A stretch of DNA of 64,000 nt from a virus: positions 1 to 64,000 of the IMG/VR virus record IMGVR_UViG_3300045973_000434. One strand, 5' to 3'. The notes under the pieces are model-generated. The model did no database searches. It was not told the origin of the DNA and worked only from the letters and a program-made list of their open reading frames with translations. Each line of letters begins with the position of its first letter. The first letter of the stretch is position 1. Positions 10,240 through 43,264 of this stretch are shown here, one piece after another. The position numbers were made by a program, and so were the translations under genes.

Positions 10240-10257
10240 AATATTTATTGAAAATAA

Positions 10258-10676: not shown

Positions 10677-10703
10677 GTAACCTTTTTGAAATCTGTTCGT
10701 ATA
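10676..10703 (+). promoter_or_regulatory. promoter-like motif TGTAAC-N16-CGTATA (copy e)
   Basis: Exact match starting in the terminator T-run, 30 nt upstream of the ATG at 10734. Confidence 0.6.
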
Positions 10704-10733
10704 ATAGGTTAGTAATAATTAAAAACAAATATT

Positions 10734-10937
10734 ATGTGTAATTATTTTTGTGTATGCAATAACTGTCCTTTTGTAAAGAAGTGCAATGTCGTCGAAGATC
10801 GGCCACAGACAAAGAATGTAAGACGTGAAGAATCAGGTAATTGGGTTGTTGAACTTCGTGGCTTCAGGGAAGTCAAAGAAGTAAAAGAAGAAAAGAAATC
10901 CAATAATACTCGTATAATCGATATTTATTTATTCTAA
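10734..10937 (+). CDS. small Cys-rich protein (67 aa)
   Basis: N-terminus is MCNYFCVCNNCPFVKKC; the C-terminus is charged. Confidence 0.5.
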   Translation: MCNYFCVCNNCPFVKKCNVVEDRPQTKNVRREESGNWVVELRGFREVKEVKEEKKSNNTRIIDIYLF

Positions 10938-11152
10938 TGGAAAAATATAGTTTTTTATATTTTGTATTTCAAATCTTATCTGTTATGGCTGGCTTTGTTA
11001 TAGGCTCTTTTCTATGGGGCCTAGTTTCTAAAAAGAAACCTACACAAGTAGTATATCAATTGGATATGTCTCTCATGAATGAGAGTGAGTCACTAGACCA
11101 GTTTATTATGCGTGCTTTTAATGAGGGTTTAGGCAGTTATAGAATTGTTTAA
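10937..11152 (+). CDS. small membrane protein (71 aa)
   Basis: Hydrophobic stretch FLYFVFQILSVMAGFVIGSFLWGLV, with a TAATG overlap to the upstream gene. Confidence 0.5.
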   Translation: MEKYSFLYFVFQILSVMAGFVIGSFLWGLVSKKKPTQVVYQLDMSLMNESESLDQFIMRAFNEGLGSYRIV

Positions 11153-11227
11153 TATTAAATAATAAGAAAATGAAAAGTACAAAATCGACAAAGAAGCCAA
11201 TGAAAAAAGGCGGAAAAAAATGTTAAT

Positions 11228-11515
11228 ATGTCTGACATAATAATGAAGGACCCTGAGTTTGGGTATACTATCAGGTATACCCCCTCTGAGGGTTTTATAG
11301 ATTGGGAAGTCTCCAACGAAGATGGGGATGTCCTTATGATAGGTAAATTTGATTCTAAGGATTATTATAAATCAGTGTTTACCTTAGTTCCTTCTAATGT
11401 GGAGGAAAATATTTATGAGAATCTGTTTTATCTCTACTTCGAAAATATCAAACTTAAGTGTATAGATATGGTAGAAGGAGATGAATCAATTGGTGATGAA
11501 GATTATGATAAATAA
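11228..11515 (+). CDS. hypothetical acidic protein (95 aa)
   Basis: ATG ORF, rich in D/E. Confidence 0.5.
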   Translation: MSDIIMKDPEFGYTIRYTPSEGFIDWEVSNEDGDVLMIGKFDSKDYYKSVFTLVPSNVEENIYENLFYLYFENIKLKCIDMVEGDESIGDEDYDK

Positions 11516-11543
11516 TGTAACTTTTTTATAAGTTATACGTATA
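11516..11543 (+). promoter_or_regulatory. promoter-like motif TGTAAC-N16-CGTATA (copy f)
   Basis: Exact match, 32 nt upstream of the ATG at 11576. Confidence 0.6.
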
Positions 11544-26853: not shown

Positions 26854-27032
26854 TGGAAATAACTAAAGAATATTTAGAAGATAAACTTAAATTGTTTATA
26901 TCTAAACAAAATGAATTAAATAAGATAATAGATGATAATATTACCTTAAGTAAAAAATTAGAAGGTGCTATTGAAGTAGTTCAAGTACTGTTAAAAGACA
27001 TTCAAATAAATACAGAAGAAAATGGCAATTAG
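26835..27032 (+). CDS. small coiled-coil protein (65 aa), possible fibre assembly factor
   Basis: It overlaps both flanking fibre genes and has a heptad-like charged sequence. Confidence 0.4.
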   Translation: MESVRLVEITKEYLEDKLKLFISKQNELNKIIDDNITLSKKLEGAIEVVQVLLKDIQINTEENGN

Positions 27033-29709
27033 GTTAAAGAAACAAAACGTAACCAATATGTATACTCCCATTGAGTTGATAACAACCAATGTGGGACAAG
27101 TTGCATATCATGGTGGAGGTGGCGGTGTTACAGACCATGGTTATTTACATGGTTTAGCGGATAACGATCACCCGCAATATCTATTGTCTAGTCGAAGTAC
27201 TCAGTTCATGCCTGCTGGTAATAGTTCTAATTATCAATTAATTGCTAATAGTTCTTTATCTTTAGGTACTGCTGCTACAGGTTCTTTCTTCTTTACATCA
27301 AATAGTTCAAATTTAATTGCACTTTCAAACAGTACTATATATGCTGTAAGCAATCATACACATACTGGTTTAGGTGGAGCAGTTAGTGATCATAGTCATG
27401 GTAGCATTAATGTTATACCTACTGCTGGAAGTCAAATGGCATTTAACTCAAATAGTAGTGGATTAACTATAAGCATGCCAGCCTTTATAACTACTTATAG
27501 TGGGGCATGGCCATTAGTTGCTCTTAATAGTGCGAGTGCAGAAGTTGACATGTATAATGGAAGTTTAAGTTTCGCTAATTCTAATGGGGTTTCCTTTGGT
27601 TTTGAAAATATAAACACAGGTACTAGACCAGGGGTGAGATTAACTGCTAGTGTAGCTGCTATAGGTGGTGCACAAACAGGTATATCAGCTATTGCAGGTA
27701 GTGCTGCTTCTAGTGTAACTAACGGTACAATAAAGTTTGCTAATTCAAACGGAGTATCTTTTGGTTTAAATGGTAGTACTATGACAGCATCTTATACTGT
27801 TCCTGGTAATACAGTGTTTAGTAATTCTAATAACATAGAGTTTGGTCTTAATGGTTCTACAGTTACAGCTTTAGCTTTATTTGCACAATCAGTACAAACA
27901 CAAAATGTAAACAATATTAGTTTAGCTGGCAATACTACAGGTACTCTTTCTCAGATTTCCTCTGGCACGGTTACTCTAGCAGGGGGTAGTAATATAACAT
28001 TATCTCAAAATGGTAATGGAATAACTATTATAGGTTCTGCCGGTGCATCTAATTCACACAATATAACACTTGCTGGTAATACAACGGGCACACTTGCTCA
28101 AGTATCTTCTGGTACTCTTACTATAGCAGGTGGTAATAATATAACCCTATCACAAAATGGCAATGCTATCACCATATCAGGAGCGAACCAGGGAGGTGTT
28201 CAGACAGGTATTAGTGCTATTGGTGGAAGTAATACTACTTATACTTCTGGCACAGTAATATGGTCTGGACAAAATAATATTACAATAGGTTCTTATGTAA
28301 GTTCTAATAGTCAATATATACGTTTAAGTGTAGGTAACTATCTTACTACAGCTGCTCAAACAGATCATGCTCATGGAGTTGGTTTAATACAATACTCTAA
28401 TATGGCTAGTGTAAGTGGTTCTAGTAATAGCGGTGGGTTCAGTTTAGGTGTAACAGGGTTCCCAACAAGTAGTTTTATTAATATATCACAGACTTCAACA
28501 TTAGCAGGAGTAGGAGCCACTATTCAAAGTACCGTTGGAACCGATATATTAGCTACACACAATAGTTTAGGACTTAATTTAGCTGTTCCTAAATACATAA
28601 CAGCGATAGGTTCTCATACACATGGTAATGTAAACCTATCTTTAACTAATCTATCTGGTACATATTCAAGTGCAAGTGATGGATTAACTCTTTCTTTAAC
28701 AGCATATCCTTCTTCAAGCTTTGCTAATGTTACAGATTTAGGAACAGTATACTTTGGTAATTCTCCAACAGTAACATTCTCTTCTTCTGTAAGTAGTAAT
28801 TCAACAACTATATTAGCTACAGCAATAGGTGGTACAGCAGGTGGAGGAGTAGCGTTAGGCTTCTCTGGTAATACAACTGGTACTACACAGACTATAGGTG
28901 CTGGAACTCTTCAATTTGTTGGTGGCAATAATATAACATTATCTCAAGCAGGTAGTATAGTAACTATATCAGCTGGTTCAAACACAGTGGCAAATAATTG
29001 GTCTACTGCAACATTATCCTCTGGTACAGTAATACAAGTATCTACTGGTGTAACTAACACATTATATTATCCTAAGTTTATAACTACTTATTCTCAAGGT
29101 ACTGGTGTAGGCACTGCTTCTGGTGTAACTAATGCGGATATTACATTCAATAGTAATGGGTTATCTTTCAATGGTACTAGATATGCAGGTACAGGATTTA
29201 CATCTACTTCACAATCAGGTTCAAATATATCAGCAACAGTTGATAGTAACGGACTTAGATTATGGGTTCCTAACTATTTAACAACACAAACATTACCATC
29301 AGCAACAATATCGTTTCAAGATGGTGGTGGCATAACATGGGGTACATCTTCTGGATCAGTAAGTAATATGACAATAGTAACTGCTACGGTTGTTGGCGGT
29401 ACTGGTGGTGGTACAAACTTCGTATTCAGTAACTCAAATAACGTATCGTTTGGTACTAGTGGTAGTACAGTAACTGCTATGGCAGGTGGGGTTAGAATGA
29501 TTCAGGTTAGTAATATACAATTATCTAATACTACAGTTAATTTCTCTAATTCTAATAACGTTTCATTTGGAGCTGTGGCTTCCAATGGGGTAGTAACAGC
29601 ATCAGCTTCATATCCAGTAGGAAGTATATTCTTTGCTGATTCAAACGGACATAGTTTCAGTTCATCGGTTAATGGAGTTTCAACAACAATTTATATTCGT
29701 ACATCTTAA
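27022..29709 (+). CDS. Ser/Thr/Gly/Asn-rich tail fibre (895 aa), paralogue of 39257..43264
   Basis: Repeated modules are GG(N/S)NITLSQ(N/A)G..(I/V)TI and F(A/S)NSN(G/N)VSFG. It has four HxH motifs (SNHTH, SDHSH, TDHAH, GSHTH). Confidence 0.7.
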   Translation: MAIRLKKQNVTNMYTPIELITTNVGQVAYHGGGGGVTDHGYLHGLADNDHPQYLLSSRSTQFMPAGNSSNYQLIANSSLSLGTAATGSFFFTSNSSNLIALSNSTIYAVSNHTHTGLGGAVSDHSHGSINVIPTAGSQMAFNSNSSGLTISMPAFITTYSGAWPLVALNSASAEVDMYNGSLSFANSNGVSFGFENINTGTRPGVRLTASVAAIGGAQTGISAIAGSAASSVTNGTIKFANSNGVSFGLNGSTMTASYTVPGNTVFSNSNNIEFGLNGSTVTALALFAQSVQTQNVNNISLAGNTTGTLSQISSGTVTLAGGSNITLSQNGNGITIIGSAGASNSHNITLAGNTTGTLAQVSSGTLTIAGGNNITLSQNGNAITISGANQGGVQTGISAIGGSNTTYTSGTVIWSGQNNITIGSYVSSNSQYIRLSVGNYLTTAAQTDHAHGVGLIQYSNMASVSGSSNSGGFSLGVTGFPTSSFINISQTSTLAGVGATIQSTVGTDILATHNSLGLNLAVPKYITAIGSHTHGNVNLSLTNLSGTYSSASDGLTLSLTAYPSSSFANVTDLGTVYFGNSPTVTFSSSVSSNSTTILATAIGGTAGGGVALGFSGNTTGTTQTIGAGTLQFVGGNNITLSQAGSIVTISAGSNTVANNWSTATLSSGTVIQVSTGVTNTLYYPKFITTYSQGTGVGTASGVTNADITFNSNGLSFNGTRYAGTGFTSTSQSGSNISATVDSNGLRLWVPNYLTTQTLPSATISFQDGGGITWGTSSGSVSNMTIVTATVVGGTGGGTNFVFSNSNNVSFGTSGSTVTAMAGGVRMIQVSNIQLSNTTVNFSNSNNVSFGAVASNGVVTASASYPVGSIFFADSNGHSFSSSVNGVSTTIYIRTS

Positions 29710-30444: not shown

Positions 30445-33400
30445 ATGGCACAATACTATATAAGAACGGACGGTAGCGATTCAAATACTGGGTTAGCTAA
30501 TACAGCTGGTGGAGCATGTAAAACACTTGCAAGTGTATGTGGTAAAGCTACGGCAGTAGGTGATGTTATTAATGTTGGAGTTGGTACATTTATTGAATCT
30601 CAATTATGTGTATTAAGGCCAGGTGTTAGTATTGTGGGAGCGGGGGTAACCTCTATAATCAAAAGTCATGTAGCTAATACAGATGGTGCTAATGATGGGC
30701 TAATTGAATTATATTCTTCTACTCAGAACTATGCAGGCAATCAGTCAATATCTAATATAAAGTTAGACGGAGATGCTCTACAGGGTGGTGGTGCTATATA
30801 TATCTATAGAAGAGGAAACGTATCTATTCATGACTGCACTATAGTTGATTTTAAATATTGTGGTGTTGTCTTTGATAACGAACTTAGTTGGGTTAGTCCA
30901 GGAACATTTGCTGTAAGTAATAGTCTTTATAATAATATTATAACTAACTGTCACGGTAGTGGTGGTGGTGGTAACGTAAGACTTACATCACAAGCAACCT
31001 TTTCAATGTATGGTAATACCATAGACGGTCGTACAAGAGGTATGCAGAACTCAGTAACGTTTAGTAACTGTAAGGCAATCACTATTAATAATAATACTTT
31101 TTATACTCTTGATACTAGACCATCTGGAAACTGGAACTTCTCTTTTGAAGTATGGGATAGTTGGGGTGGTATCGAATTTCATCACAATAACTTCCTTGGT
31201 GGTGGTACAATGGACTTAGGTGGACATTATACTTATAAGGGAGCGTATGCATTTGGTATAAGTGTTCATGATAATAACTTTACCATAGCATCAAGACAGC
31301 CTTATACTCCTGAGGAGTGTATTGCTATAACTTCTGAGTCATGGCAGAGACTTGAAGATGTATGGATATACAATAATAGAATAACAAACTTTGCTTCTGG
31401 TATACAGGTTACCTTTGGAGCACAAGCTGGAGGAGTAGCACAGAACTACTATATCTTCAATAATATATTTGAAGGTATGGGTTATACTGATCGTAGTGCT
31501 TATGTGATAGGTTTTGTTGATCAGAACGTTGCGGTTACTTCTTATACAAATATAAATATCATTAATAACGTAATAGTCTCTGGTGCTAATCCAGGCATAG
31601 CTATTAGATATGATGTTATGGGAAGTAACACTAATATTAATATTAAGAATAATATTGTTAGTGGTGCGTTTAGCCCAGCGGTTAGATTTGCAGTTGCAGA
31701 TTACGGTGGAACTTTTACTAATTTAGCAGTAACTAATAATATATTTTTTGGTGTTGGTGCTAATTATAGTTGGGTAGGAATTCCTTCACAAGGAACTCTT
31801 TCTCCAGTATCTGCGAGTAATCCAAACTTTGTTTCAGCAACTGACTTTCATCTTAAAGCAGGTTCTGCTGCTATAGGTTATGGAACAACTGTAGCCAATG
31901 TTACTAACGACTTAGCAGGTAATGCTTATGCTAATCCTAGATCAGTAGGGGTATATGAATATAGTGCTGTTGTTCCTGTTATCGCAACTATAACAACATC
32001 TTCAGTAACTGGTATTACTTCAACTACTGCAACTACAGGAGGTATTATATCTACAGATGGAGGAGCCATAGTTACTTCTCGTGGAATATGTTGGGCAACT
32101 ACCAGTAATCCTACTATAGCAAATAATAAAGTTATTGATCCTACGACTGGTACAGGAACATTTGTTAGTTTAATAACAGGACTTACACAATCAACTATTT
32201 ACCATGTAAGAGCCTATGCTACAAATTCAGTAGGTACCGCATATGGAGCAGATATACAATTTGTAACAACTACTCCAGTAGTATTACCAACAGTTACAAC
32301 ACAAGCAGCATCTCTTATATCTTATACAACTGCTACTGGAAACGGTAATATAACTTCAAGTGGTGGTGCTACAGTTACAGGAGGATTTTGTTGTGCTACT
32401 CATACCGTTCCTACTACTGCTGATAATTCTATTAGTGTTGTTATTGGAGCAGGAGTATATAGTGGAGGTTGGACTGGTTTACTTCCTTCTACAACATATT
32501 ATTTAAGAGCTTGGGCAACAAACTCAGCTGGTACTTCTTATGGTAATGAAGTATCATTCACTACTCTAACTCCTAGTGCTCCAACTGTAACCACAGGGGC
32601 TATATTTGCAATAACGCAAACAAGTGCAACTGTTGCTGGTACTGTAACTAATATTAATGGAGCAGCTATTACAGGAACAGGAATTTGTTGGTCTACAATA
32701 TCAGGACCTACAATAACAGGTAGTCATACTTCAGATGGAATTAGCCTTAGTTGGTCTGGTTCTCTTACTGGATTAAGTTCTAATACTCTTTACTATGTAC
32801 GTGCATATGCAACCAATAGTGCAGGAACAAGTTATGGTACTCAAATTAGTTTTACAACAACAGCTGCGTTACCAACATTAAATCTTACTTCGATTACTAG
32901 TATAACTTCAACTACAGCTAGTAGCGGTGGTAATACTTTAAATGACAATGGTTCAGTAATTACAGCAAAAGGTATATGCTGGTCAACCACTACTACTCCA
33001 ACAATTGCCACTAGTCATACAACAGATGGTTCTGGTAATAGTAACTATTCAAGTACTTTAAGTGGTTTAGTTGCTAATACGTTATACTACGTTAGGGCGT
33101 ATGCTACTAATAGCATTGGTACTGGTTATAGTTCACAATTAACATTTACTACATCTCCATCAGTTACTTATATCAGTGTTATAAAAGCACAAGTAAAGAA
33201 ATGGATGTGTGTTCCAGACGATAGAGGGCATGGAGCTTTATACAACTGGTATGTTGCTAGTTCTAGTAAAGTAGCACCCGTAGGTTGGCATGTTCCTTCA
33301 AACGCTGAATTTAATACTTTAAGAACTTTCTTTGATCCATATGGTGCTTATATAAATAACGTTGCTGGAGGTCCTTTAAAACAAATTGGAATTACACACT

Positions 33401-34368
33401 GGATGACTCCTAACACAGATGCTACAAATTCTTCTGGATTTAATGGAGTTGGAAGTGGTAGTAGGTGGTACAACGATGGCACATATAATAGTATCCATGG
33501 TTACTCATTTATGTGGGGTACTGATGTTAGATATGGTCAAGGTGTAACTGGACAGCTTGTTGCAAATAACCCTACCTTTAATACAACAGGAGGTACTAGT
33601 TATACATATGCAGATGTTAAAAATGGTTATAATATACGTTTTATAAAGGACAATTCTGTTGTAGGAGATTGTATAGATTACGATGGAAATAATTACGGAG
33701 GTGTTTTAATAGGAACACAAGTATGGACTACTAAAAATTTTAAGGGTACTCATTATAACGATGGCACAGTAATACCATTGGTAACAGATAACAATGAATG
33801 GATAGCATTAGGTGTACCTATTGATGTAACTAATGATGATAGTAATAGAATGCCGTCTAAGGCTGGAGCGACGACTACAATTAATTGGGGACAAACATTC
33901 CCATCAATAGGTAAGTCACTCACAAAAGTTATAGTTAAAGTTAATAGTGGCAATAGTAAATTAGGTTCTCCTGATTTTAATATAAGATGTTCAATATATA
34001 ATACAAGTTTAGGTATTCAGTACGCTACTACAACAATGTTGCCTACCACCAAAATAGCTGATTCTACAAATGTCATTTCAGCATCTATATGGGGAACTGA
34101 TAATCACGAGTTCTTATTTAACAGTCTTTCCTTACCAATAGGACAGTATGCTATTTATTTTACTTATGAAGATGTAGTTCTTAATGATGAGTCTAATAAT
34201 ATTGGTTTTAGTTGGGGATACAGTACATATCCGGGAGGAGAAGCTTTTTATCATTATAGTTCCTATGCTGCTGGTGTTTATAATACTCTTGGGCCAGCAT
34301 TAAATTTATATATATATTTTGAAGGAGACGGTATGTGTTATTATAACAACGATCCAACATATGCTTAA
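30445..34368 (+). CDS. tailspike-like protein (1307 aa): parallel beta-helix + 4 tandem Ig/FN3-like domains + permuted FISUMP-type domain
   Basis: The N-terminus YYIRTDGSDSNTGL...CKTLASV, plus about 11 rungs of the type NN(I/T/F)(I/F)xG, mark a PbH1 beta-helix. See the repeat feature and findings for the rest of the protein. Confidence 0.75.
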   Translation: MAQYYIRTDGSDSNTGLANTAGGACKTLASVCGKATAVGDVINVGVGTFIESQLCVLRPGVSIVGAGVTSIIKSHVANTDGANDGLIELYSSTQNYAGNQSISNIKLDGDALQGGGAIYIYRRGNVSIHDCTIVDFKYCGVVFDNELSWVSPGTFAVSNSLYNNIITNCHGSGGGGNVRLTSQATFSMYGNTIDGRTRGMQNSVTFSNCKAITINNNTFYTLDTRPSGNWNFSFEVWDSWGGIEFHHNNFLGGGTMDLGGHYTYKGAYAFGISVHDNNFTIASRQPYTPEECIAITSESWQRLEDVWIYNNRITNFASGIQVTFGAQAGGVAQNYYIFNNIFEGMGYTDRSAYVIGFVDQNVAVTSYTNINIINNVIVSGANPGIAIRYDVMGSNTNINIKNNIVSGAFSPAVRFAVADYGGTFTNLAVTNNIFFGVGANYSWVGIPSQGTLSPVSASNPNFVSATDFHLKAGSAAIGYGTTVANVTNDLAGNAYANPRSVGVYEYSAVVPVIATITTSSVTGITSTTATTGGIISTDGGAIVTSRGICWATTSNPTIANNKVIDPTTGTGTFVSLITGLTQSTIYHVRAYATNSVGTAYGADIQFVTTTPVVLPTVTTQAASLISYTTATGNGNITSSGGATVTGGFCCATHTVPTTADNSISVVIGAGVYSGGWTGLLPSTTYYLRAWATNSAGTSYGNEVSFTTLTPSAPTVTTGAIFAITQTSATVAGTVTNINGAAITGTGICWSTISGPTITGSHTSDGISLSWSGSLTGLSSNTLYYVRAYATNSAGTSYGTQISFTTTAALPTLNLTSITSITSTTASSGGNTLNDNGSVITAKGICWSTTTTPTIATSHTTDGSGNSNYSSTLSGLVANTLYYVRAYATNSIGTGYSSQLTFTTSPSVTYISVIKAQVKKWMCVPDDRGHGALYNWYVASSSKVAPVGWHVPSNAEFNTLRTFFDPYGAYINNVAGGPLKQIGITHWMTPNTDATNSSGFNGVGSGSRWYNDGTYNSIHGYSFMWGTDVRYGQGVTGQLVANNPTFNTTGGTSYTYADVKNGYNIRFIKDNSVVGDCIDYDGNNYGGVLIGTQVWTTKNFKGTHYNDGTVIPLVTDNNEWIALGVPIDVTNDDSNRMPSKAGATTTINWGQTFPSIGKSLTKVIVKVNSGNSKLGSPDFNIRCSIYNTSLGIQYATTTMLPTTKIADSTNVISASIWGTDNHEFLFNSLSLPIGQYAIYFTYEDVVLNDESNNIGFSWGYSTYPGGEAFYHYSSYAAGVYNTLGPALNLYIYFEGDGMCYYNNDPTYA
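31972..33160 (+). repeat. four tandem ~97-aa domain repeats inside the tailspike gene
   Basis: Each unit contains ...(G/K)GICW(A/S)T...PT(I/T)...LTGL...T.YYVRAYATNS.GT.YG..(I/L).F.T. The units are diverged at the DNA level. Confidence 0.7.
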
Positions 34369-34385: not shown

Positions 34386-34413
34386 TGTAACAAAATTGAA
34401 TTAATTTCGTATA
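34386..34413 (+). promoter_or_regulatory. promoter-like motif TGTAAC-N16-CGTATA (copy g)
   Basis: Exact match, 29 nt upstream of the ATG at 34443. It is the only copy inside the late/structural region. Confidence 0.55.
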
Positions 34414-34442
34414 ATTAAATTAAAAAAGATTATATAAAACTT

Positions 34443-35168
34443 ATGAACCCACAGATAGTGATGTTAGATCCAGCAGGTTTTCACAACAAAGATTTAGATG
34501 TGTCTGCTGATAGACTAGAGAAAAGTAAAACATATAGAGACCTGTCGACTATTATTATATGTCCGACACGGGGTCAGATACCAGCAAAGGTTGTACAGTC
34601 CTGGATGGGATTGATGAGACCTATGAATCAGAAAGTAATAGGACCGATCTTTGCAATTGGAATGGAAGTAGGACAAGCCTATAACAATGTTATAGAGAAC
34701 ATACTTGCTAATCCTGAGCTCTCTCAGTATAAATATATAATGACAATAGAAGAAGACAACATGCCTCCGGTAGATGGTTTACTTAGATTGTATGAGAGTA
34801 TGGATAAGTACGATGTAGTACAGGGGTTATACTGGACTAAAGGGGAAGGTGGACAGCCTATGATATATGGCGATCCTTCTGTAATGCCAAAGAACTTTAT
34901 ACCTCAAGTACCCAAAGCAGACCAAGTACAACAGTGCAATGGTTTAGGTATGGGTTTTAATTTGTTTAAAATGGAGATCTTTAAAGATAAAGATATTCCT
35001 AAACCTTGGTTTAAAACAGTACAGGAAGTTATACCTGGTGTTGGGGCTAGGGCTTATACACAAGATCTATACTTCTATGAGAATGCTGCTAAGGCAGGTT
35101 ATATATTCGCATGTGATAATAGAGTAAGGGTAGGACACTACGATATTAATTCAGATATAGTGTGGTAA
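34443..35168 (+). CDS. glycosyltransferase, GT-A-like (241 aa)
   Basis: IIICPTRG (Rossmann-like start), an acidic TIEEDNMPP (DxD-type position), NGLGMGFNLF, and TQDLYFYENAAKAGY...VGHYD. This is motif-level evidence. Confidence 0.5.
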   Translation: MNPQIVMLDPAGFHNKDLDVSADRLEKSKTYRDLSTIIICPTRGQIPAKVVQSWMGLMRPMNQKVIGPIFAIGMEVGQAYNNVIENILANPELSQYKYIMTIEEDNMPPVDGLLRLYESMDKYDVVQGLYWTKGEGGQPMIYGDPSVMPKNFIPQVPKADQVQQCNGLGMGFNLFKMEIFKDKDIPKPWFKTVQEVIPGVGARAYTQDLYFYENAAKAGYIFACDNRVRVGHYDINSDIVW

Positions 35169-35170
35169 TT

Positions 35171-35347
35171 ATGAAATATGAAATATTAAAAGCTAAAGAC
35201 AAAACATTTTATTTTGTACTTAAAGCAAAAAACGGTGAGATAATAATCACCTCAGAAACTTACAAGACAAAACAAGCCTGTAAAAAAGGAATTAGGTCTG
35301 TAAAAGTAAACAGTATATTCAGTAGAACTATTGACTCAACAAAGTAA
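35171..35347 (+). CDS. YegP-like (DUF1508) small protein (58 aa from ATG)
   Basis: KYEILKAKDKTFYFVLKAKNGEIIITSETYKTKQACKKGIRSVK matches the YegP repeat consensus (F.l.k....fRF.LkA.NGeii..Se.Y.sk..a..gI.sVk). The track start at 35162 is a GTG. Confidence 0.6.
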   Translation: MKYEILKAKDKTFYFVLKAKNGEIIITSETYKTKQACKKGIRSVKVNSIFSRTIDSTK

Positions 35348-35349
35348 AT

Positions 35350-36018
35350 ATGAAAAAAGGAACAGTAGAACCAAGTGCAGCTAAGATGATTAATGAGTTG
35401 AAACTTGACCTGGCGTGTGGCCAGAATAAAGCAGAAGGTTATTTCGGGATTGATATATTCCCTGGAGAGAACGTTGATGGTGTTGTGGATCTAGAACAGT
35501 TTCCATGGCCGATAGAATCAAACAGTGCTGAGGATATTGTGTGTAATCATTATATTGAACACACACCGACAGAACCATTTTCAAAAGATTTAATGTATGC
35601 TATCTTAGAATCAAATACATTAGAAGAGTTAAAAAGTAAAGTAGAAATATTAAAACTTAAACCTTCTGATGGACTTATAAGATTCATGGATGAGATATAC
35701 AGAATACTTAAACCAGGTGGTAAAGTTAAATTCGTAGCACCTTATTATAATTCAATTAGATGTTGGCAAGATCCTACTCATAAAAGAGCGATCAGCGAAG
35801 CTACCTTTCTTTATTATAATAAACAGTGGAGAGATACAAATAGGTTAAACCATTATCCTATACATTGCGACTTCGATTATACTTACGGGTATGATATGAA
35901 TGTTGAGTTTGCTAACAAACACGAAGACGCTAGAAACTATGGTGTAGCACATTACATGAATGTTATAAATGACATACATGTAGTTCTTACTAAAAGAGAA
36001 CCAGAACTTAAGAAATAA
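35350..36018 (+). CDS. class I SAM-dependent methyltransferase (222 aa)
   Basis: Motif I LDLACGQNKAEGYFGIDI, ILKPGGKVKFVAP, and DPTHKR. Confidence 0.6.
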   Translation: MKKGTVEPSAAKMINELKLDLACGQNKAEGYFGIDIFPGENVDGVVDLEQFPWPIESNSAEDIVCNHYIEHTPTEPFSKDLMYAILESNTLEELKSKVEILKLKPSDGLIRFMDEIYRILKPGGKVKFVAPYYNSIRCWQDPTHKRAISEATFLYYNKQWRDTNRLNHYPIHCDFDYTYGYDMNVEFANKHEDARNYGVAHYMNVINDIHVVLTKREPELKK

Positions 36019-36324: not shown

Positions 36325-36615
36325 GTGGAAAAGAAGATTAGGGAAATGAGTCAAATACAAATACAAAACGTGTCGGCGGATGTGTTAGAGTTATTACAGA
36401 AAGACATATCCGATATTAAGATGGCACTGCTTGGTAATGAATATAACCCAGGTGGTGGTTTACTAAGTAGGACAGCAGAACTTGAAAAGGAATTATCAAA
36501 ACTTAAAAGTAGGTACGAACGAATAATATGGACCGTTAGTGTTGTAGGTGCTATTATTACTATGATTTTTAATTTCATTGCACAATTTTGGGACAAGCTT
36601 ATTGTTACTAAATAA
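36325..36615 (+). CDS. coiled-coil protein with C-terminal TM helix (96 aa; GTG start, alternative ATG 36346), lysis-associated candidate
   Basis: IIWTVSVVGAIITMIFNFIAQFW lies near the C-terminus. The gene is directly upstream of the endolysin with an ATAATG junction. Confidence 0.45.
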   Translation: MEKKIREMSQIQIQNVSADVLELLQKDISDIKMALLGNEYNPGGGLLSRTAELEKELSKLKSRYERIIWTVSVVGAIITMIFNFIAQFWDKLIVTK

Positions 36616-37100
36616 TGGATAAGATATCTAAACATATTAATTATACTGAAGCTACTAGAAGTGATACTGCTAAACGTAGTGGTATACCTAATACCCCTAG
36701 TAACTATCAGTTAGATAATATGAAGAGGTTAGCAGAAAATGTATTTGAACCTCTACGAGAACATTTTAACACACCAATCTTTATTGCTTCTTTCTATAGG
36801 AGCAATACAGTTAATGCGTTAATGGGGGGTGTTGCTAATTCACAACACATTTCAAACAATGGATCAGCTATAGATTTAGATGCTGATGTTTTTAATGTAA
36901 TATCTAATAATGATATATTTAATTACATTAAAGACAACTTAGACTTTGATCAATTAATAGCAGAAGACATTCATCCGGATGGAACTATTAATTGGGTACA
37001 TGTTAGTTATAATGAAAACCACAATAGACATGAAATTTTAACAATGACTATTATAGGTGATACAAAAAAATATGAAACTTATAGACCTGTTAACGTTTAA
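36615..37100 (+). CDS. endolysin, peptidase M15 family (161 aa)
   Basis: SFYRSNTVNALMGGVANSQH..NGSAIDLD ... WVHVSY matches the M15 zinc-binding layout (H..D...H). Confidence 0.75.
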   Translation: MDKISKHINYTEATRSDTAKRSGIPNTPSNYQLDNMKRLAENVFEPLREHFNTPIFIASFYRSNTVNALMGGVANSQHISNNGSAIDLDADVFNVISNNDIFNYIKDNLDFDQLIAEDIHPDGTINWVHVSYNENHNRHEILTMTIIGDTKKYETYRPVNV

Positions 37101-39256: not shown

Positions 39257-42200
39257 ATGATAAGAGGTAGAAAATATGATTTGTTCGGTTATCCTGGACC
39301 AGCTGGTAAGTCTGCATATCAACTTGCAGTACTAAATGGTTTTAAAGGAACTGAAGAAGAATGGTTAGCATCTTTAGGTGGTGGAGAAGTTGGTACTGGT
39401 TTTACAACAGCCAGTGTAACTGGTTCACGTTTATTAGGTACTATGGGAACAAGTGGGTTAAATCTATTTGTTCCTAATTATTTAACTACCGCAGCAAATG
39501 GTGGTGGTGGAGGTCCATGGGTTGTTAGTACTAAAACTGGTTCTGATATACAAATATCAACCGGTAGTATAAACACATTACACCATGGTAATTTTATTAC
39601 TACATATGTAGCAGGCACATCTGTAAACGCTGCTGGTTTAAATGCAGCAATGACTGGTGGTTCTATTACAGTTAATACATCTGGTATATCAATTAATTTA
39701 CCAGACTATTTAACTACTGCAGCTAATTCCACTCATACACATGTTTATCAAACTACAGGTAATTATTTAACAACTGCAGCTGTTTCAGATCATACTCATT
39801 CAGATCTATATCAATCTAAAGGTGCATATTTAACTACAGCTATGGCTTCCAATGCTGGTAGTAACTTTATACCAATTGGTAATAGCACTGATTACGCAAC
39901 GTCTGTTTTATCAACTAAGTTTCTTACAACAGCACAGGCACCTGGAGCATATCTAACAACTGCTATGCAATCAGCTAGCTCTAGTGTGTTCATGAAGACT
40001 GGCTTTACAACAACTGCGACTGCAGGTACAGCTGTAGTAGCTACAGCAAATACAGATGGTTTAAAACTTGGAGTTCCAGCATTTTTAACAACCGCAATGT
40101 TGTCTCAGAACACTAGTCTTTATCAATCTACAGGAGCTTATTTAACAACAGCAATGTTATCAGCCAACACTAGTGCTTACATGAGTACAGGTGAAAGGAA
40201 CAACTATCAATACACTTCTAATAGTTCTAACAACACTAGTGTCTACCAAGCGTTATCCGCTACAACAAAATTTGCTGGTAGTGGCACATCTGCTACGAAT
40301 GCTAGTATAACACTTAACTCAAATGGTTTAGCAATATCTGTTGCAGCCCCAAGTGCTGCTGGTGGTATTGCAGGTTCAATTGGTGGTAACTCAACATCAG
40401 CAGGTGCAGGTTATTCAAACATTACTTCAGGTACTATGTACTTGATGGGTGGTAACAATATAACCTTATCTCAGAATGGTGCGTCAGTTACAATAGTTGG
40501 TCCTACAGCAGGTGCTGGTGATGGTGGTAATGTGTTAGCAGCCGGCGGTTCAACCGCAGGTTCTACAGGTACTTATGGTTTTGGTAATGCTAATGGTATA
40601 TCGTTTAGTTTAAATGGTTCTACTATTACAGCAAGTCATAATGCTATAACATCACAGTCTAATCAAATTCTAACACTATACGCTACTTCTAATACTACCG
40701 GTGTTTCATCTACAACAATGAACGCATCTAGTTTAATATTTAAAGGAGTAGATCAATTGTCTGTTGGTTTTTCTGCCGGTTCTATATTATTAGAACATGG
40801 TGGTGCTGATCCATTGTTTAATAGAATAGCTGCTAGTAATAGTACTGTTCCAGCAGGATCTACAGTTATATTTTCTAATTCAAATAACGTATCCTTTGGT
40901 ATAACTAACGGTTCTCAACTTACAGCAAGTGCTTCTTTTAACGGATTAACTACAGCGATGCAATCAGACGCTGGTAGTAATTTTATAGGTATAGGAAATA
41001 GTACAGCATATCAAACATCTGTTCTATCAACTAAATTTTTAACTACAGCCGATCTATCTCAAAACTCAAGTAACTATTTAAATACTTCTGTAAGTAGTGC
41101 TTATCAAACCTCTGTGTTATCAGGTACATTCCAACAAATATCAGCTAGTTCGGCATATCAGACAGCAACGCTTTCTACAGCATTAATGCCGTTAACGTAT
41201 TCAAGTGGGTTTCAGACTGCAACATTAGCAACCAAGTTCTTAACTACAGCAGCTGTATCAGATCACACACATTCAAACTTATATGTTAACACTTCAGTAA
41301 GTGCTAACTTTTTAACTACTGCAGCTCAGTCAGGACATACACACGCAAGTGCACCTAGTATAACAGGTAATATAAGTGTAACCTCAAATAGTTCTGCTTG
41401 GTCCATAGCAATAGGTGCATACCTTACAACTGCTATGCTATCACAGAATACTAGTTTATATCAATCAACTGGTGCTTACTTAACAACAGCAATGGCTAGT
41501 AACCAAGCGCTGTATTCTGCAACAAGCCAGTTCTCAGCATCTTTTATTAACACAGGACAAACTGCTGGATTTCTTACTACAGCAGCTGCAAGTAATCATT
41601 CACATGGTAATCCTACTCTTTATCTAACAAACATATCAGGTACTACCGCTAGTGCGTCAAATGGATTTAGTTTATCATTAAGCGCAGACACTGTTGGTGG
41701 TGGTGGCACAGCGTCTATAATCTTTCAAGATGGTAGTGGTGTATCATGGGGTAGTTCAGTTAACGGAGTATCTACTACTATTACAGCATCTGTAAATGGT
41801 GGTGCCGCTGGTGCAGGACTTAACAGTGCTATCACTGGTGGTAGTATGACAGTAAATACTTCAGGTATCAGTATTAATATACCTACGTATTTAACTACAG
41901 CAATGGCTTCTGATGCTGGTAGTAATTTTATTGCAATAGGAAATTCCACAGCATATCAGACTTCTGTGTTAGATAACACTTTCATGGAACTTAGTTATAG
42001 CTCTGCATTTCAAACAGCTACTTTAGCCACTAAGTTTTTAACTACAGCCATGGCTAGTAACCAAGCTATCTATTCAGCTACTAGTCAATTTTCTGCATCC
42101 TTTGTAAATACAGGTCAGAGTAGTGCATATAACACCACTGTATTATCTACAGCACTTATGCCACTTGCATATAGTTCTGGATGGAACAGTACGGTGTTAT

Positions 42201-43264
42201 CAACTAAATTCTTAACCACAGCAGCTTTATCAGGAGATACTACTAAGTATATACAGGCGTGGGAACTAGCGGGAGCTAATACAGCAGGTACATCTTCTAG
42301 TTTACAAGGTACAAAACTATTCTTTTCTGGTGGTAATAATATTACACTGTCAGGTAATAGCAATACAATAATAATATCTGCTGGTAACGGTGGTGGTGGT
42401 GGCATAGCTGCTAGTATAGGTGGTAACTCAACATCAGCTGGAGCTGGTTATTCTAATATTACATCTGGTACAATGTTAATAGCTGGTGGTAGTAATATTA
42501 CTTTAAGACAAGCTGGTTCAGTTGTTTCAATAGATGGAGCTACAGCTAATGGTCCAGCTTCTGTAGTATTTCAGGATGGTAATGGAATTACTTGGGCAAG
42601 TACTGTAGCAGGTTCAACAACAACTATAGGTGCAACGGCTAATTTAGGTGCCCCTAATAGAAGTATGATAGAAATTATACCAGGGGAATATTTAACTAAA
42701 GTATTTTCTCTTTCACAAACACAAGTAAGTAAAAGAGTTGTATTTACTCCTTTTTGGATGGATGGTAATGGGGTGCAAGCTTCGACAGTAAGAATACTTA
42801 TGTCATGGGTAACTAATTCTACAGGACCACAAATGACATATGGGGCTGCATTTTATTCAGAAGTTAACCCAACTAGTTTGGCTTTATATGATAGTACTAC
42901 AGCAACAATAGATTTATCTTCAACTCAAAGTGCTTCTTATACTGGTATTCGTGCATGGGATATAACTGGTATGACAAAAACATTATCTGAAGGTAGATGG
43001 ATTATGGGTTTGTATTTTAACGGTACTGCTGCTAATAATATGAATGGAATAGTATACGGTGCATCAGCATATCCAAATATATTAGGATATATATCAGGAG
43101 GACAATCAACTCTTGGTACAAATGATACAGTACATTTATTTCCATGGATGGGATATTACTCTGCTACAACTGCTGGATTTCCTGCAAATGTAGGCAGATC
43201 TCAAATATATGGAGGTAGATCGGCAGATGCGTTTGACTTCTATGCAGCAATAAAAGAAATATAA
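39257..43264 (+). CDS. long Ser/Thr/Ala/Gly-rich tail fibre (1335 aa)
   Basis: The N-terminal GPAGKSAYQLAVLNGFKGTEEEWLASLGG is a common phage-fibre N-terminal motif. By my count it has about 18 [FY]LTTA repeats and five HxH motifs. It shares modules with 27022..29709. Confidence 0.75.
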   Translation: MIRGRKYDLFGYPGPAGKSAYQLAVLNGFKGTEEEWLASLGGGEVGTGFTTASVTGSRLLGTMGTSGLNLFVPNYLTTAANGGGGGPWVVSTKTGSDIQISTGSINTLHHGNFITTYVAGTSVNAAGLNAAMTGGSITVNTSGISINLPDYLTTAANSTHTHVYQTTGNYLTTAAVSDHTHSDLYQSKGAYLTTAMASNAGSNFIPIGNSTDYATSVLSTKFLTTAQAPGAYLTTAMQSASSSVFMKTGFTTTATAGTAVVATANTDGLKLGVPAFLTTAMLSQNTSLYQSTGAYLTTAMLSANTSAYMSTGERNNYQYTSNSSNNTSVYQALSATTKFAGSGTSATNASITLNSNGLAISVAAPSAAGGIAGSIGGNSTSAGAGYSNITSGTMYLMGGNNITLSQNGASVTIVGPTAGAGDGGNVLAAGGSTAGSTGTYGFGNANGISFSLNGSTITASHNAITSQSNQILTLYATSNTTGVSSTTMNASSLIFKGVDQLSVGFSAGSILLEHGGADPLFNRIAASNSTVPAGSTVIFSNSNNVSFGITNGSQLTASASFNGLTTAMQSDAGSNFIGIGNSTAYQTSVLSTKFLTTADLSQNSSNYLNTSVSSAYQTSVLSGTFQQISASSAYQTATLSTALMPLTYSSGFQTATLATKFLTTAAVSDHTHSNLYVNTSVSANFLTTAAQSGHTHASAPSITGNISVTSNSSAWSIAIGAYLTTAMLSQNTSLYQSTGAYLTTAMASNQALYSATSQFSASFINTGQTAGFLTTAAASNHSHGNPTLYLTNISGTTASASNGFSLSLSADTVGGGGTASIIFQDGSGVSWGSSVNGVSTTITASVNGGAAGAGLNSAITGGSMTVNTSGISINIPTYLTTAMASDAGSNFIAIGNSTAYQTSVLDNTFMELSYSSAFQTATLATKFLTTAMASNQAIYSATSQFSASFVNTGQSSAYNTTVLSTALMPLAYSSGWNSTVLSTKFLTTAALSGDTTKYIQAWELAGANTAGTSSSLQGTKLFFSGGNNITLSGNSNTIIISAGNGGGGGIAASIGGNSTSAGAGYSNITSGTMLIAGGSNITLRQAGSVVSIDGATANGPASVVFQDGNGITWASTVAGSTTTIGATANLGAPNRSMIEIIPGEYLTKVFSLSQTQVSKRVVFTPFWMDGNGVQASTVRILMSWVTNSTGPQMTYGAAFYSEVNPTSLALYDSTTATIDLSSTQSASYTGIRAWDITGMTKTLSEGRWIMGLYFNGTAANNMNGIVYGASAYPNILGYISGGQSTLGTNDTVHLFPWMGYYSATTAGFPANVGRSQIYGGRSADAFDFYAAIKEI

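What the first reader, a model, noticed from the sequence alone, without database searches (positions are those of the whole stretch)
34386..36018. Autonomously promoted glycosyltransferase - YegP - methyltransferase cassette wedged between fibre genes and the lysis genes
Directly after the tailspike gene, the only promoter-motif copy in the late region precedes three genes: a GT-A-like glycosyltransferase, a DUF1508/YegP protein and a class I SAM methyltransferase. The neighbouring fibres are extraordinarily Ser/Thr-rich. Virion protein glycosylation by adjacent GT genes is known in some mycobacteriophages. Seroconverting GTs that remodel host surface glycans are known in enterobacterial phages. 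I am not aware of either being described for crAss-like phages. The cassette shares its promoter with the small presumably early genes, which favours a host-directed role such as surface glycan remodelling or exclusion. Its location favours fibre modification. Both are testable.
Basis: partly seen in the sequence, partly recalled or inferred. Interest (0 to 1): 0.75.

Follow-up and report, generated by a model that had tools for sequence, protein, structure and literature searches.

The report
Phage tail-fibre sugar-and-methyl decorating module
A crAss-like phage carries a sugar-transferring enzyme and a methyl-transferring enzyme that, in over a hundred uncultured phages, sit next to one unusual family of repeat-rich tail fibres, so they most likely decorate the fibres the phage uses to attach to its host.

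Summary
The three genes and the promoter-like motif are real. The 241-aa protein is a soluble GT-A glycosyltransferase. Its family profile matches the archaeal-virus enzyme STIV A197 by sequence (E 8e-8) and its model matches by fold, with the DXD-type motif and catalytic Asp conserved. The 222-aa protein is a class I SAM methyltransferase. The 58-61-aa protein is DUF1508/YegP.

The conserved unit is not GT-YegP-MT. It is fibre, then GT, then a variable insert, then MT. YegP is one of many facultative inserts.

In 107 related loci, 89 of the 100 ORFs just upstream of the GT are Ser/Thr/Asn/Gly-rich fibre-like proteins. In the converse test, I fetched loci only by the fibre motif GGNNITLSQ. A GT lay downstream in 22 of 24 loci with at least 5 kb of downstream DNA.

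The GT is far more conserved than its neighbours: 56-89% identity across GC 31-60%, including Patescibacteria-binned contigs.

This favours modification of the phage's own fibres over host glycan remodelling.

The promoter motif is genuine, but it heads a run of genes with no terminator. By position it matches phi14:2 middle promoters, not early ones. Nothing has been tested biochemically.

The parts
34386..34413 (+). Promoter-like motif TGTAAC-N16-CGTATA(A), ending 29 nt before the GT start codon. It reads like a -35/-10 pair (GTAACA-17-TATAAT).
   Evidence: Motif variants sit upstream of the GT in relatives L001/L002 and L005-L012. L003, L013 and L014 have a TAnnTTTG Bacteroidetes-type -7 box instead.
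34443..35168 (+). A197-like GT-A glycosyltransferase, 241 aa, soluble. Predicted key residues: E103-E104-D105 (DXD-type motif), D208 in TQDLYF (catalytic base), H232.
   Evidence: AF2 pLDDT 95.2. Foldseek top hit STIV A197, E 1.1e-10, followed by further GT-A enzymes. Family profile against A197, E 8e-8, with D208 aligned to A197 D151. Conserved columns. No TM segment.
35171..35347 (+). Single-domain DUF1508/YegP protein, 58 aa from the ATG or 61 aa from the GTG at 35162. It is a facultative insert between GT and MT.
   Evidence: Pfam PF07411, 4.2e-18. Present between GT and MT only in the window, L006, L008 and L009.
35350..36018 (+). Class I SAM-dependent methyltransferase, 222 aa. It carries a two-helix insert of about 35 aa and an invariant WQDPTH motif. 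It is the constant partner of the GT.
   Evidence: Relatives hit PF08241 and PF13489. AF2 pLDDT 91.9. Foldseek finds generic class I MTs. Alignment. An MT lies downstream of the GT in nearly all loci.
27022..29709 (+). Repeat-rich fibre protein, 895 aa. It has 3 copies of xGG(N/S)NITLSQxG and 6 of F(S/A)(N/D)SN(G/N)xSF(G/S). Candidate acceptor of the modification.
   Evidence: Homologous segments lie directly upstream of the GT in many loci. No Pfam family.
39257..43264 (+). Second repeat-rich fibre protein, 1335 aa. It has 3 NITL-type motifs, 1 FSNSNNVSFG and 18 (Y/F)(L/I)TT(A/Y) motifs. Candidate acceptor.
   Evidence: No Pfam family.
30445..34368 (+). Fibre or tailspike-like protein, 1307 aa, immediately upstream of the GT. 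It has FN3 domains and a Fib_succ_major domain and lacks the NITLSQ motif.
   Evidence: The same type lies upstream of the GT in 16 loci of the window's crAss clade, window included.
7707..11543 (+). Cluster of the other copies of the promoter-like motif, at 7707, 8116 (1 mismatch), 8656, 10676 and 11516, with a looser copy at 10258. They sit ahead of small genes upstream of the terminase gene.
   Evidence: Positional equivalence to phi14:2 middle promoters P108 and P110.
36615..37100 (+). M15 peptidase endolysin. It marks the lysis block that follows the MT without a terminator. This is context, not part of the module.
   Evidence: Pfam PF08291, 3.2e-12, and phrog_894 endolysin, 4.2e-29.

Best explanation
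The conserved unit is a fibre-decorating module. A soluble, minimal GT-A glycosyltransferase of the STIV A197 type and a class I SAM methyltransferase act in the infected cytoplasm on the phage's own repeat-rich tail-fibre proteins. These are the proteins carrying the TLxLAGGNNITLSQxGNxITIS and GTVxFSNSNGVSFGLNGSTITA repeats, here at 27022-29709 and 39257-43264. The enzymes would act before or during fibre assembly.

The GT would transfer a sugar from a nucleotide sugar to conserved Ser, Thr or Asn positions in the repeats. In some relatives the donor is probably a 6-deoxyhexose. The MT would then methylate the sugar or, less likely, the fibre protein itself.

The TGTAAC-N16-CGTATAA element is an internal promoter of the phage's non-early class. 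It would let the enzymes, and the downstream lysis and tail genes, be made independently of read-through from the fibre genes.

DUF1508/YegP is an unrelated facultative insert in a gap that tolerates insertions.

Shown here: the folds, the catalytic motifs, the synteny and the two-way co-occurrence.
Inferred: the acceptor, the sugar, the MT target and the timing of expression.
For: 1. The GT is a real enzyme family.
- AF2 pLDDT is 95.
- The best PDB fold match is STIV A197, followed by LH3, mimivirus R699, SpsA and TarP.
- The family profile hits A197 by sequence at E 8e-8. LTxEEDNxP aligns with A197 LDEDVVP. TQD208 aligns with A197 GED151, the residue whose D151E mutation delays STIV replication (PMC10551542).
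- E103, D105, D208 and H232 are conserved in at least 90% of 64 sequences that are 29-59% identical to the query.

2. GT and MT travel together. An MT homologue lies downstream of the GT in nearly every locus with DNA available. A GT-A/FkbM-methyltransferase fusion exists in another uncultured phage.

3. Sugar chemistry sits in the gap. Between GT and MT lie an RmlA-like nucleotidyltransferase and a 4,6-dehydratase-cluster ORF in L063. L019 has a cytidylyltransferase-like protein plus a dehydratase (1.2e-80 to dTDP-glucose 4,6-dehydratase). L026 has a dehydratase-cluster ORF.

4. Fibre linkage, starting from the GT. Of 100 loci with an upstream ORF, 73 have one BLAST cluster of fibre-like proteins (nearly all with 36-53% S+T+N+G), usually 0-35 bp from the GT. 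Another 16, window included, have the window's 1307-aa type.

5. Fibre linkage, starting from the fibre. I fetched loci only by a back-translated GGNNITLSQ pattern. A GT lay downstream on the same strand in 22 of 24 loci with at least 5 kb after the last motif, and in 11 of 11 with at least 8 kb.

6. Isolate and GenBank phage records. Among 50,697 records, the only ones matching the fibre repeat segment are also the only ones with a close GT. They are three records of one 42.6-kb podovirus. phi14:2 has neither feature.

7. GT conservation. Identity is 78% in L003, where ring and muzzle proteins are 27-29% identical. It is 56-76% in contigs with GC 31-60%. This points to a conserved acceptor rather than variable host glycans.

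8. No TM segment in GT, YegP or MT.
Against: - There is no biochemical or proteomic evidence that any fibre is glycosylated or methylated.
- In the window the gene immediately upstream of the GT (30445-34368) lacks the repeats. The motif-bearing fibres lie 4.7 kb upstream and 3.2 kb downstream.
- Regions around fibre genes are generally permissive for accessory genes, so adjacency alone is weak evidence. A receptor-masking gene next to a receptor-binding gene also has precedent, in T5 llp-oad (my own knowledge).
- Remote GT homologues (about 23% identity) occur in T4-like cyanophages. Those records did not match the fibre-repeat segment.
- The MT fold gives no substrate class.
- High GT conservation could partly reflect horizontal transfer rather than constraint.
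Confidence: 0.55

Rival explanations
1. Host-directed glycan remodelling. GT and MT alter a host envelope glycan (O-antigen, capsule or S-layer glycan) to mask the receptor. This would block superinfection or stop progeny from being trapped on debris. It is the first reader's other option.
For: The genes have an internal promoter of the non-late type. The enzymes are linked to receptor-binding genes, which would make sense for receptor masking. Remote homologues lie in cyanomyophage genomes, which are known to carry LPS-type gene clusters (my own knowledge).
Against: The GT is 56-89% identical across phages with GC 31-60%, binned with Bacteroidota, Patescibacteria and others. Host surface glycans and the fibres' own sequences vary far more. 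The GT has no TM segment, and no flippase or GT-C partner is nearby, unlike Gtr-type seroconversion systems. In most relatives the GT lies 0-35 bp after the fibre gene.
Confidence: 0.15
2. The pair modifies another phage component, or makes a methylated sugar or glycan that is not covalently attached to the repeat-bearing fibres. Possible targets are another virion protein (capsid, the 1307-aa spike), a cofactor or a folding aid.
For: The GT's closest characterised relative, A197, is suspected of glycosylating a capsid protein. In the window's clade the immediate upstream gene is the 1307-aa protein, which lacks the repeats.
Against: The association is specifically with the NITLSQ/SNSNGVSFG repeat family and holds from both directions. 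It also holds in lineages that share no other recognisable structural genes with the window.
Confidence: 0.15
3. DNA hypermodification. The GT glycosylates a modified base in phage DNA and the MT methylates DNA or the sugar, as an anti-restriction measure.
For: GT-A fold DNA glycosyltransferases exist. A TET-associated glycosyltransferase of phage phiRSL1 is a weak fold match, E 7.7e-5. The replication module of this phage lies outside the window and could not be inspected.
Against: No hydroxymethylase, TET/JBP or nucleotide-metabolism gene lies near the pair in the loci inspected. The constant neighbour is a fibre gene. The best matches are protein- and glycan-directed GT-A enzymes. The MT resembles small-molecule or generic class I MTs rather than DNA MTases.
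Confidence: 0.05
4. The genes are unlinked accessory genes. GT, YegP and MT sit together only because the fibre-lysis junction tolerates insertions.
For: The GT-MT gap does accept unrelated inserts. These include HNH and EndoVII endonucleases, NUDIX, a beta-lactamase-like protein and YegP.
Against: GT and MT co-occur in nearly all of about 150 loci from several phage lineages. The conditional frequency of a GT given the fibre motif is 92-100%.
Confidence: 0.05

Closest known systems
STIV A197 (PDB 2C0N), the minimal GT-A glycosyltransferase of Sulfolobus turreted icosahedral virus
   Same: It is detectable by sequence with the family profile (E 8e-8) and is the best fold match (E 1.1e-10, TM 0.73 on the target). 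The acidic DXD-type motif, the NG(x)G(x)GF strand and the catalytic Asp (A197 D151, here D208) all align. Both are small, single-domain, virus-encoded enzymes. A197 is suspected of glycosylating a virion protein.
   Different: A197 comes from an archaeal virus, is about 16% identical and is shorter (about 200 aa against 241). It has no constant methyltransferase partner or fibre linkage that I know of. Its acceptor is also unproven.
Mycobacteriophage virion glycosylation (Freeman et al. 2023, cited in PMC12582341; details from my own knowledge)
   Same: The glycosyltransferases are phage-encoded and sit beside structural genes. They modify virion proteins in the infected cell. The Che8 glycosyltransferase is a weak GT-A fold match, E 4.7e-5.
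   Different: The phage lineage and hosts differ. The reported targets there are capsid and tail-tube subunits, not receptor-binding fibres. There is no obligatory methyltransferase partner and no repeat sequon of the NITLSQ type. Here nothing has been shown experimentally.
Dedicated cytoplasmic adhesin glycosyltransferases of bacteria: AAH/TibC with AIDA-I/TibA, and HMW1C with HMW1 (my own knowledge)
   Same: In each case a soluble glycosyltransferase is encoded next to a long, repeat-rich, beta-rich adhesin. It modifies repeated Ser or N-x-S/T positions in the cytoplasm. The gene pairing is analogous to fibre-GT here.
   Different: Those enzymes are not GT-A A197-like proteins. HMW1C belongs to GT41 with a GT-B fold, and the heptosyltransferases form a separate family. 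They are cellular rather than viral and have no methyltransferase partner.
Giant-virus glycan machinery: chlorovirus PBCV-1 A064R (two GT domains plus a methyltransferase domain) and mimivirus R699 (A064R from my own knowledge)
   Same: A virus-encoded GT-A enzyme is coupled to a SAM methyltransferase that O-methylates the transferred deoxy-sugar on a virion protein. R699 is among the top fold matches. A GT-A/FkbM-MT fusion exists in an uncultured phage.
   Different: These are eukaryotic viruses with multidomain enzymes, and the targets are capsid protein or fibrils. There is no sequence-level relationship to the MT here.
Seroconverting Gtr and O-antigen-modifying systems of enterobacterial phages
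   Same: They are phage-encoded glycosyltransferases with a role connected to the receptor.
   Different: Those systems use membrane-embedded enzymes: GtrA flippase, GtrB with TM helices and a GT-C serotype-specific transferase. They act on lipid-linked sugars. Here the GT is soluble and no such partners are present.
phi14:2 middle promoters (Drobysheva et al., bioRxiv 10.1101/2020.03.07.982082)
   Same: These are internal promoters in a crAss-like genome. They lie ahead of the small genes upstream of the terminase gene and ahead of an enzyme gene embedded in the structural block (P075). They have -35/-10-like blocks and are used by host RNA polymerase.
   Different: The sequence differs. phi14:2 has AAAACTTG(A/C)...TAnnTTTG. 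The window motif TGTAAC-N16-CGTATA is absent from the 50 kb of phi14:2 examined. The expression class in this phage is untested.

Membership tests
GT-A fold glycosyltransferases (A197-like) | Single Rossmann-like alpha/beta/alpha nucleotide-sugar-binding domain | tested here: met
   AF2 model with pLDDT 95.2 and pTM 0.89. 97 PDB matches at E<=0.001, and the top 50 listed are all GT-A enzymes, led by A197.
GT-A fold glycosyltransferases (A197-like) | Acidic DXD-type metal and nucleotide-sugar-binding motif after the fourth strand | tested here: met
   T101-I-E103-E104-D105-N follows strand 98-101. E103 and D105 are conserved in at least 90% of 64 diverse members. The motif aligns with A197 L-D-E-D-V-V-P.
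GT-A fold glycosyltransferases (A197-like) | Catalytic-base Asp (A197 D151) | tested here: met
   D208 in TQDLYF aligns with the Asp of A197 GEDVYFF. By the alignment numbering that Asp is residue 151. D208 is invariant among 20 members and present in at least 90% of 64.
GT-A fold glycosyltransferases (A197-like) | Sugar-transfer activity, with a defined donor and acceptor | not testable with these tools
   Indirect evidence only: NDP-sugar genes (RmlA-like, 4,6-dehydratase) lie between GT and MT in L019, L026 and L063.
Class I SAM-dependent methyltransferases | Seven-stranded Rossmann-like MT fold | tested here: met
   AF2 pLDDT 91.9. 185 PDB matches at E<=0.001, nearly all class I MTs among the 50 listed.
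Class I SAM-dependent methyltransferases | Motif I (GxGxG-like) and an acidic residue at the end of strand 2 | tested here: met
   The motif is LDLACGQ with A22 and G24 invariant, and D35 in GID is invariant. The window protein alone is below the Pfam cutoff (18.3 against 21.2 bits), but many of its relatives carry precomputed PF08241 hits.
Class I SAM-dependent methyltransferases | Substrate class (sugar O-, protein, nucleic acid or small molecule) | tested here: inconclusive
   Fold and NCBIfam matches are generic. Only the context suggests a sugar or fibre target.
DUF1508 / YegP | Match to PF07411 above the gathering score | tested here: met
   65.4 bits against a cutoff of 22, E 4.2e-18, covering residues 11-51. 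It is a single-domain form. The literature reports such forms as homodimers of unknown function.
Gtr-type seroconversion systems | Membrane-embedded GtrB-like or GT-C transferase with a flippase partner | tested here: not met
   The maximum 19-residue hydropathy of the GT is 0.87, so there is no TM segment. The neighbours are YegP, MT and lysis genes.
Phage virion-protein glycosylation systems (mycobacteriophage type) | GT genes embedded among structural genes | tested here: met
   A fibre gene lies immediately upstream in 89 of 100 loci. The converse test gives 22 of 24.
Phage virion-protein glycosylation systems (mycobacteriophage type) | Glycan demonstrably attached to virion proteins | not testable with these tools
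   This needs glycoproteomics or glycan staining of virions, or co-expression experiments.
DNA-modifying glycosyltransferases (T4 alpha/beta-GT, TET-associated GT) | Association with base-hydroxymethylating or oxidising enzymes, or a GT-B fold of the T4 type | tested here: not met
   The fold is GT-A, not the T4 GT-B type. No such neighbour was seen in the loci examined. The replication module of this phage is outside the window, so absence from the whole genome was not tested.
crAss-like middle promoters as defined in phi14:2 | Sequence consensus of the phi14:2 tripartite motif | tested here: not met
   P070 and P075 read AAAACTTG...TAnnTTTG. The window motif has no match in phi14:2 50-100 kb. 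Only the position and the two-block architecture correspond.

The most novel reading that the evidence does not exclude
A widespread and so far undescribed phage system. An A197-like GT-A enzyme recognises a conserved repeat sequon in tail fibres, such as the N-I-T or the Ser of AGGNNITLSQ, or the SNSNGVSFG motif. It glycosylates the fibres in the cytoplasm, and a dedicated methyltransferase caps the sugar.

The system would be shared by environmental crAss-like phages and by phages or prophages of Patescibacteria. That would make it a new cytoplasmic protein-glycosylation chemistry for receptor-binding proteins, with a sequon that can be predicted from sequence.
Probability: 0.4. Interest if true: 0.8.

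Novelty: new variant of a known kind. Interest (0 to 1): 0.68.

Why it matters
Receptor-binding fibres decide phage host range, yet post-translational modification of them is almost unexplored. Virion glycosylation has been shown only in mycobacteriophages, and there on the capsid and tail tube.

If this module decorates fibres, three things follow:
- Fibre structure predictions and host-range engineering for a large group of uncultured phages would miss a chemical layer. That group includes crAss-like phages and phages found in Patescibacteria bins.
- The conserved repeats would provide a sequence-predictable modification site.
- The GT, which is more conserved than any structural protein nearby, would be a convenient marker gene for this fibre type.

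The work also gives a likely role to a family of several thousand "hypothetical" proteins (4037 hits; PHROG 1574, function unknown). It links that family to the archaeal-virus enzyme A197.

Tried and rejected
- Single-sequence searches for the GT found nothing informative. Pfam and NCBIfam gave no hit and PDB phmmer gave none. Only the family profile and the fold search resolved it.
- Megablast of the region against GenBank phages found no match.
I used the single protein and the narrower alignment A4 instead.
- I looked for the intergenic region as a long repeat and found nothing. The real signal is the two short blocks with fixed spacing.
- I tested whether the motif equals the phi14:2 middle promoter. 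It does not.
- I tried to assign the MT a substrate class by fold and by NCBIfam. Only generic matches came back.
- I checked for tRNA and Rfam elements that might explain the promoter copies. There are none.
- I asked whether the Patescibacteria chromosomal copies are prophages. Neighbours hit PHROG families, mostly of unknown function. One IMG/VR relative has an integrase and an ERF recombinase nearby. This is suggestive but unresolved.
- The Freeman 2023 paper could not be opened.
- I considered DNA modification and Gtr-type seroconversion and ranked them low, for the reasons given under the rival explanations.
Full report
**What is at the coordinates**

The region holds three + strand ORFs separated by 1-2 nt:
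- 34443-35168, 241 aa
- 35171-35347, 58 aa (61 aa from a GTG at 35162)
- 35350-36018, 222 aa

The window is a crAss-like phage genome of about 33% GC.
- Relatives on contigs of about 100 kb carry CrAss_Ring_1, CrAss_Ring_2 and crAss_MUZ.
- The window matches Cellulophaga phage phi14:2 in order for terminase (13741), portal (15807), major capsid protein (19373), the g073, g072 and g071 homologues (38784, 43276, 44190).
- Upstream of the three ORFs lie fibre-like genes. Downstream lie an M15 endolysin and strongly hydrophobic small proteins.

**The promoter motif**

The finding's start coordinate, 34386, is the first base of TGTAAC-N16-CGTATA.
- The pattern occurs exactly five times, all on the + strand: 7707, 8656, 10676, 11516 and 34386.
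- At up to one mismatch there are eight matches, against 0.40 expected. None of 100 shuffles reached eight.
- The exact copies are intergenic and end 23-35 nt before a start codon.
- No other exact copy lies beyond 11.6 kb.
- Variants of the motif precede the GT in close relatives (L001/L002, L005-L012). More distant crAss-like relatives have a Bacteroidetes-type TAnnTTTG box instead. So a promoter in front of the GT is conserved within this clade.

Two qualifications apply.
- No terminator-like site follows the MT, and the genes run on without gaps. The element is an internal promoter for a long downstream block, not for a closed cassette.
- The other copies precede the small genes just upstream of the terminase gene. 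In phi14:2 that position carries middle promoters (P108, P110) used by host RNA polymerase. Early genes there are transcribed by the virion polymerase and have no common motif. A further middle promoter (P075) precedes an enzyme gene embedded in the structural block, and promoter motifs of this kind precede genes for virion proteins in other crAss-like genomes.
- The sequence of the window motif differs from the phi14:2 consensus. The class assignment is therefore by position only.

**The three proteins**

*The 241-aa protein (GT)*
- It has no Pfam, NCBIfam or single-sequence PDB hit.
- It belongs to a very large family: 4037 hits, and 755 representatives at 50% clustering.
- A model built on 64 diverse members has pLDDT 95.
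- The model matches GT-A glycosyltransferases: first STIV A197 (E 1.1e-10), then LH3, mimivirus R699, SpsA and TarP.
- The family profile finds A197 by sequence at E 8e-8. LTxEEDNxP aligns with LDEDVVP. TQD208LYF aligns with GED151VYFF. D151 is the residue whose mutation delays STIV replication, and A197 is essential there and thought to glycosylate the capsid protein.
- E103, D105, D208 and H232 are nearly invariant.
- The protein has no hydrophobic segment.

*The 222-aa protein (MT)*
- It is a class I SAM methyltransferase by fold and through its relatives' Pfam hits.
- It has invariant LDLACGQ, GID and WQDPTH motifs.
- Its substrate class cannot be read from the fold or from NCBIfam.

*The small protein (YegP)*
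- It is a single DUF1508/YegP domain.
- The family's function is unknown. Single-domain forms are reported to dimerise, and a Whirly-like topology has been proposed.

**What the conserved unit really is**

I compared 107 loci that contain a GT homologue: 27 from viral or metagenome contigs, one from an annotated podovirus, 78 from the GTDB genome collection, plus the window itself.
- The MT is downstream of the GT in nearly all loci with enough DNA.
- YegP lies between GT and MT only in the window and three close relatives.
- Other loci carry other inserts in that gap:
  - an HNH endonuclease, or an endonuclease VII
  - a Fib_succ_major protein, or whole fibre genes
  - a NUDIX protein, or a second methyltransferase
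  - a beta-lactamase-like protein (34 loci)
  - nucleotide-sugar enzymes: an RmlA-like nucleotidyltransferase and a 4,6-dehydratase-cluster ORF in L063; a cytidylyltransferase-like protein plus a dehydratase (1.2e-80) in L019; a dehydratase-cluster ORF in L026

The pair therefore belongs to sugar chemistry. A GT-A/FkbM methyltransferase fusion in another uncultured phage points the same way.

**The link to one fibre family**

Starting from the GT:
- The ORF just upstream of the GT falls into one BLAST cluster of fibre-like proteins in 73 of 100 loci. Nearly all of them have 36-53% S+T+N+G. The gap to the GT is usually 0-35 bp.
- In another 16 loci, window included, the upstream ORF is the window's 1307-aa type.
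- The large cluster shares repeats with the window's 895-aa and 1335-aa fibres.
- The repeat consensus sequences are TLxLAGGNNITLSQxGNxITIS (296 distinct instances) and GTVxFSNSNGVSFGLNGSTITA (197 distinct instances).
- These fibres match no Pfam family.

Starting from the fibre:
- I scanned IMG/VR with a back-translated GGNNITLSQ pattern, with no reference to the GT. This returned 104 loci.
- A GT homologue lay downstream on the same strand, 0.7-6.9 kb from the last motif copy. The frequency depended on how much DNA was available after the last motif:

| DNA after the last motif | Loci with a GT |
|---|---|
| less than 1 kb | 0 of 35 |
| 3-5 kb | 10 of 14 |
| at least 5 kb | 22 of 24 |
| at least 8 kb | 11 of 11 |

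In GenBank phages:
- Among 50,697 records, the only three matching the fibre repeat segment are also the only three with a close GT.
- They are one Manatee Spring podovirus, which has MT-GT-MT directly after the fibre-like gene and three further GTs upstream.
- phi14:2 has neither the GT nor the repeats.

**Conservation**

The GT is by far the most conserved protein in its neighbourhood.
- In L001 it is 80% identical, against 52-68% for the neighbours.
- In L003 it is 78% identical, against 27-29% for ring and muzzle proteins.
- It is 56-76% identical in contigs binned as Saccharibacteria, Paceibacterota and other Patescibacteria. Some of these are chromosome-sized, and their GC ranges from 31 to 60%.

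A transferase aimed at variable host surface glycans would be expected to diversify with host and receptor. An enzyme that recognises a conserved repeat in the phage's own fibres, and a common nucleotide sugar, would not.

**Interpretation**

The best-supported reading is a fibre-decorating module. A soluble A197-like GT glycosylates the repeat-rich fibres in the cytoplasm. The MT methylates the sugar or, less likely, the protein. A 2026 paper shows that methylation of a phage tail protein can be essential for infectivity (PMC13445384, seen).

I put this at about 0.55. It rests entirely on comparative evidence. In the window itself the repeat-bearing fibres are 4.7 kb upstream and 3.2 kb downstream of the GT rather than adjacent.

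The rivals are:
- host glycan remodelling, 0.15
- another phage target or a non-covalent product, 0.15
- DNA modification, 0.05
- chance adjacency, 0.05

Its argument from location is supported, and more strongly than it could know.

**Comparison with known systems and novelty**

- The enzyme is a member of the GT-A superfamily and a sequence-detectable relative of STIV A197.
- The arrangement works like mycobacteriophage virion glycosylation.
- It also works like bacterial adhesin-plus-dedicated-glycosyltransferase pairs (AIDA-I/AAH, HMW1/HMW1C).
- It resembles giant-virus GT-plus-MT glycan machinery (PBCV-1 A064R).
- It differs from all of these in enzyme family, in its constant MT partner, in the fibre repeat target and in its phage lineages.
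- I found no description of it in the literature held. Searches on crAss-like or Crassvirales with glycosyltransferase returned only catalogue-type mentions.

I rate it a new variant of a known kind, with interest 0.68.

Noticed in passing
window 52389-64000 (+ strand): One reading frame stays open from 52389 to the end of the window, at least 3,866 codons with a single stop in that frame before it. It lies where phi14:2 has the separate virion proteins gp67 and gp66 (RNA polymerase), so it may be a fused giant virion protein. tblastn against the phi14:2 stretch held here gave no hit at E<=1e-3.
   Followed up: partly
L030-L107 (e.g. L033 OY970358.1, 881 kb; L044, 644 kb; L071, 1.16 Mb; L074, 1.26 Mb): GT homologues 56-76% identical to this crAss-like phage protein lie in Patescibacteria (Saccharibacteria, Paceibacterota) MAG contigs, some of chromosome size. 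They come with the same fibre-GT-MT arrangement. Neighbours hit PHROG families, so prophages or phage-derived regions are likely, but this is not shown.
   Followed up: partly
34 loci, e.g. L033 8739-9749 and L100 8720-9712: In mostly Patescibacteria-binned loci, a 313-379 aa Beta-lactamase2-family (serine hydrolase) protein sits between GT and MT (Pfam 2.3e-39). It could be a cell-wall enzyme of those phages. Its relation to the module is unknown.
   Followed up: partly
L005 10735-11193; L105 8683-9180: Homing-type endonucleases (HNH in L005, endonuclease VII in L105) are inserted between GT and MT. This marks the gap as an insertion hot spot.
   Followed up: no
window 35350-36018, residues about 73-107 of the MT: The MT family comes in two length classes. 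The window's form has a two-helix insert of about 35 aa (TEPFSKDLMYAILESNTLEELKSKVEILKLKPSDG) that roughly half of the aligned relatives lack. The insert pushes the protein below the Pfam cutoff.
   Followed up: partly
window 39257-43264: The 1335-aa fibre carries 18 copies of a (Y/F)(L/I)TT(A/Y) motif. Several copies are followed by a His-x-His motif (e.g. SDHTHS, SGHTHA), which recalls the metal-binding HxH repeats of T4-type long tail fibres (my own knowledge). This was not analysed further.
   Followed up: no
window 10258-10285 (+): A looser copy of the promoter motif (TGAAAC-N16-CGTTTA) lies in the 9995-10734 stretch, where my ATG-only gene call placed no gene. It resembles the variant upstream of the GT in L001.
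   Followed up: no
window 20855-20927 and 24150-24236: The two other sizeable intergenic gaps of the late region contain GC-rich hairpins followed by T-runs (GGTGGGGTGATACGTCACCCC; GGGCGGGTATAAAAGCTCGCCCTTTTT). They look like terminators or attenuators after the capsid-region genes.
   Followed up: no
L004 (MW202524.1, 42.6-kb podovirus, Manatee Spring): This is the only deposited phage genome with a close GT homologue. It has MT-GT-MT directly after a fibre-like gene, and three more glycosyltransferases upstream (annotated beta4glucosyltransferase, gtA and yqgM-like). That suggests a multi-sugar glycan in that phage.
   Followed up: partly
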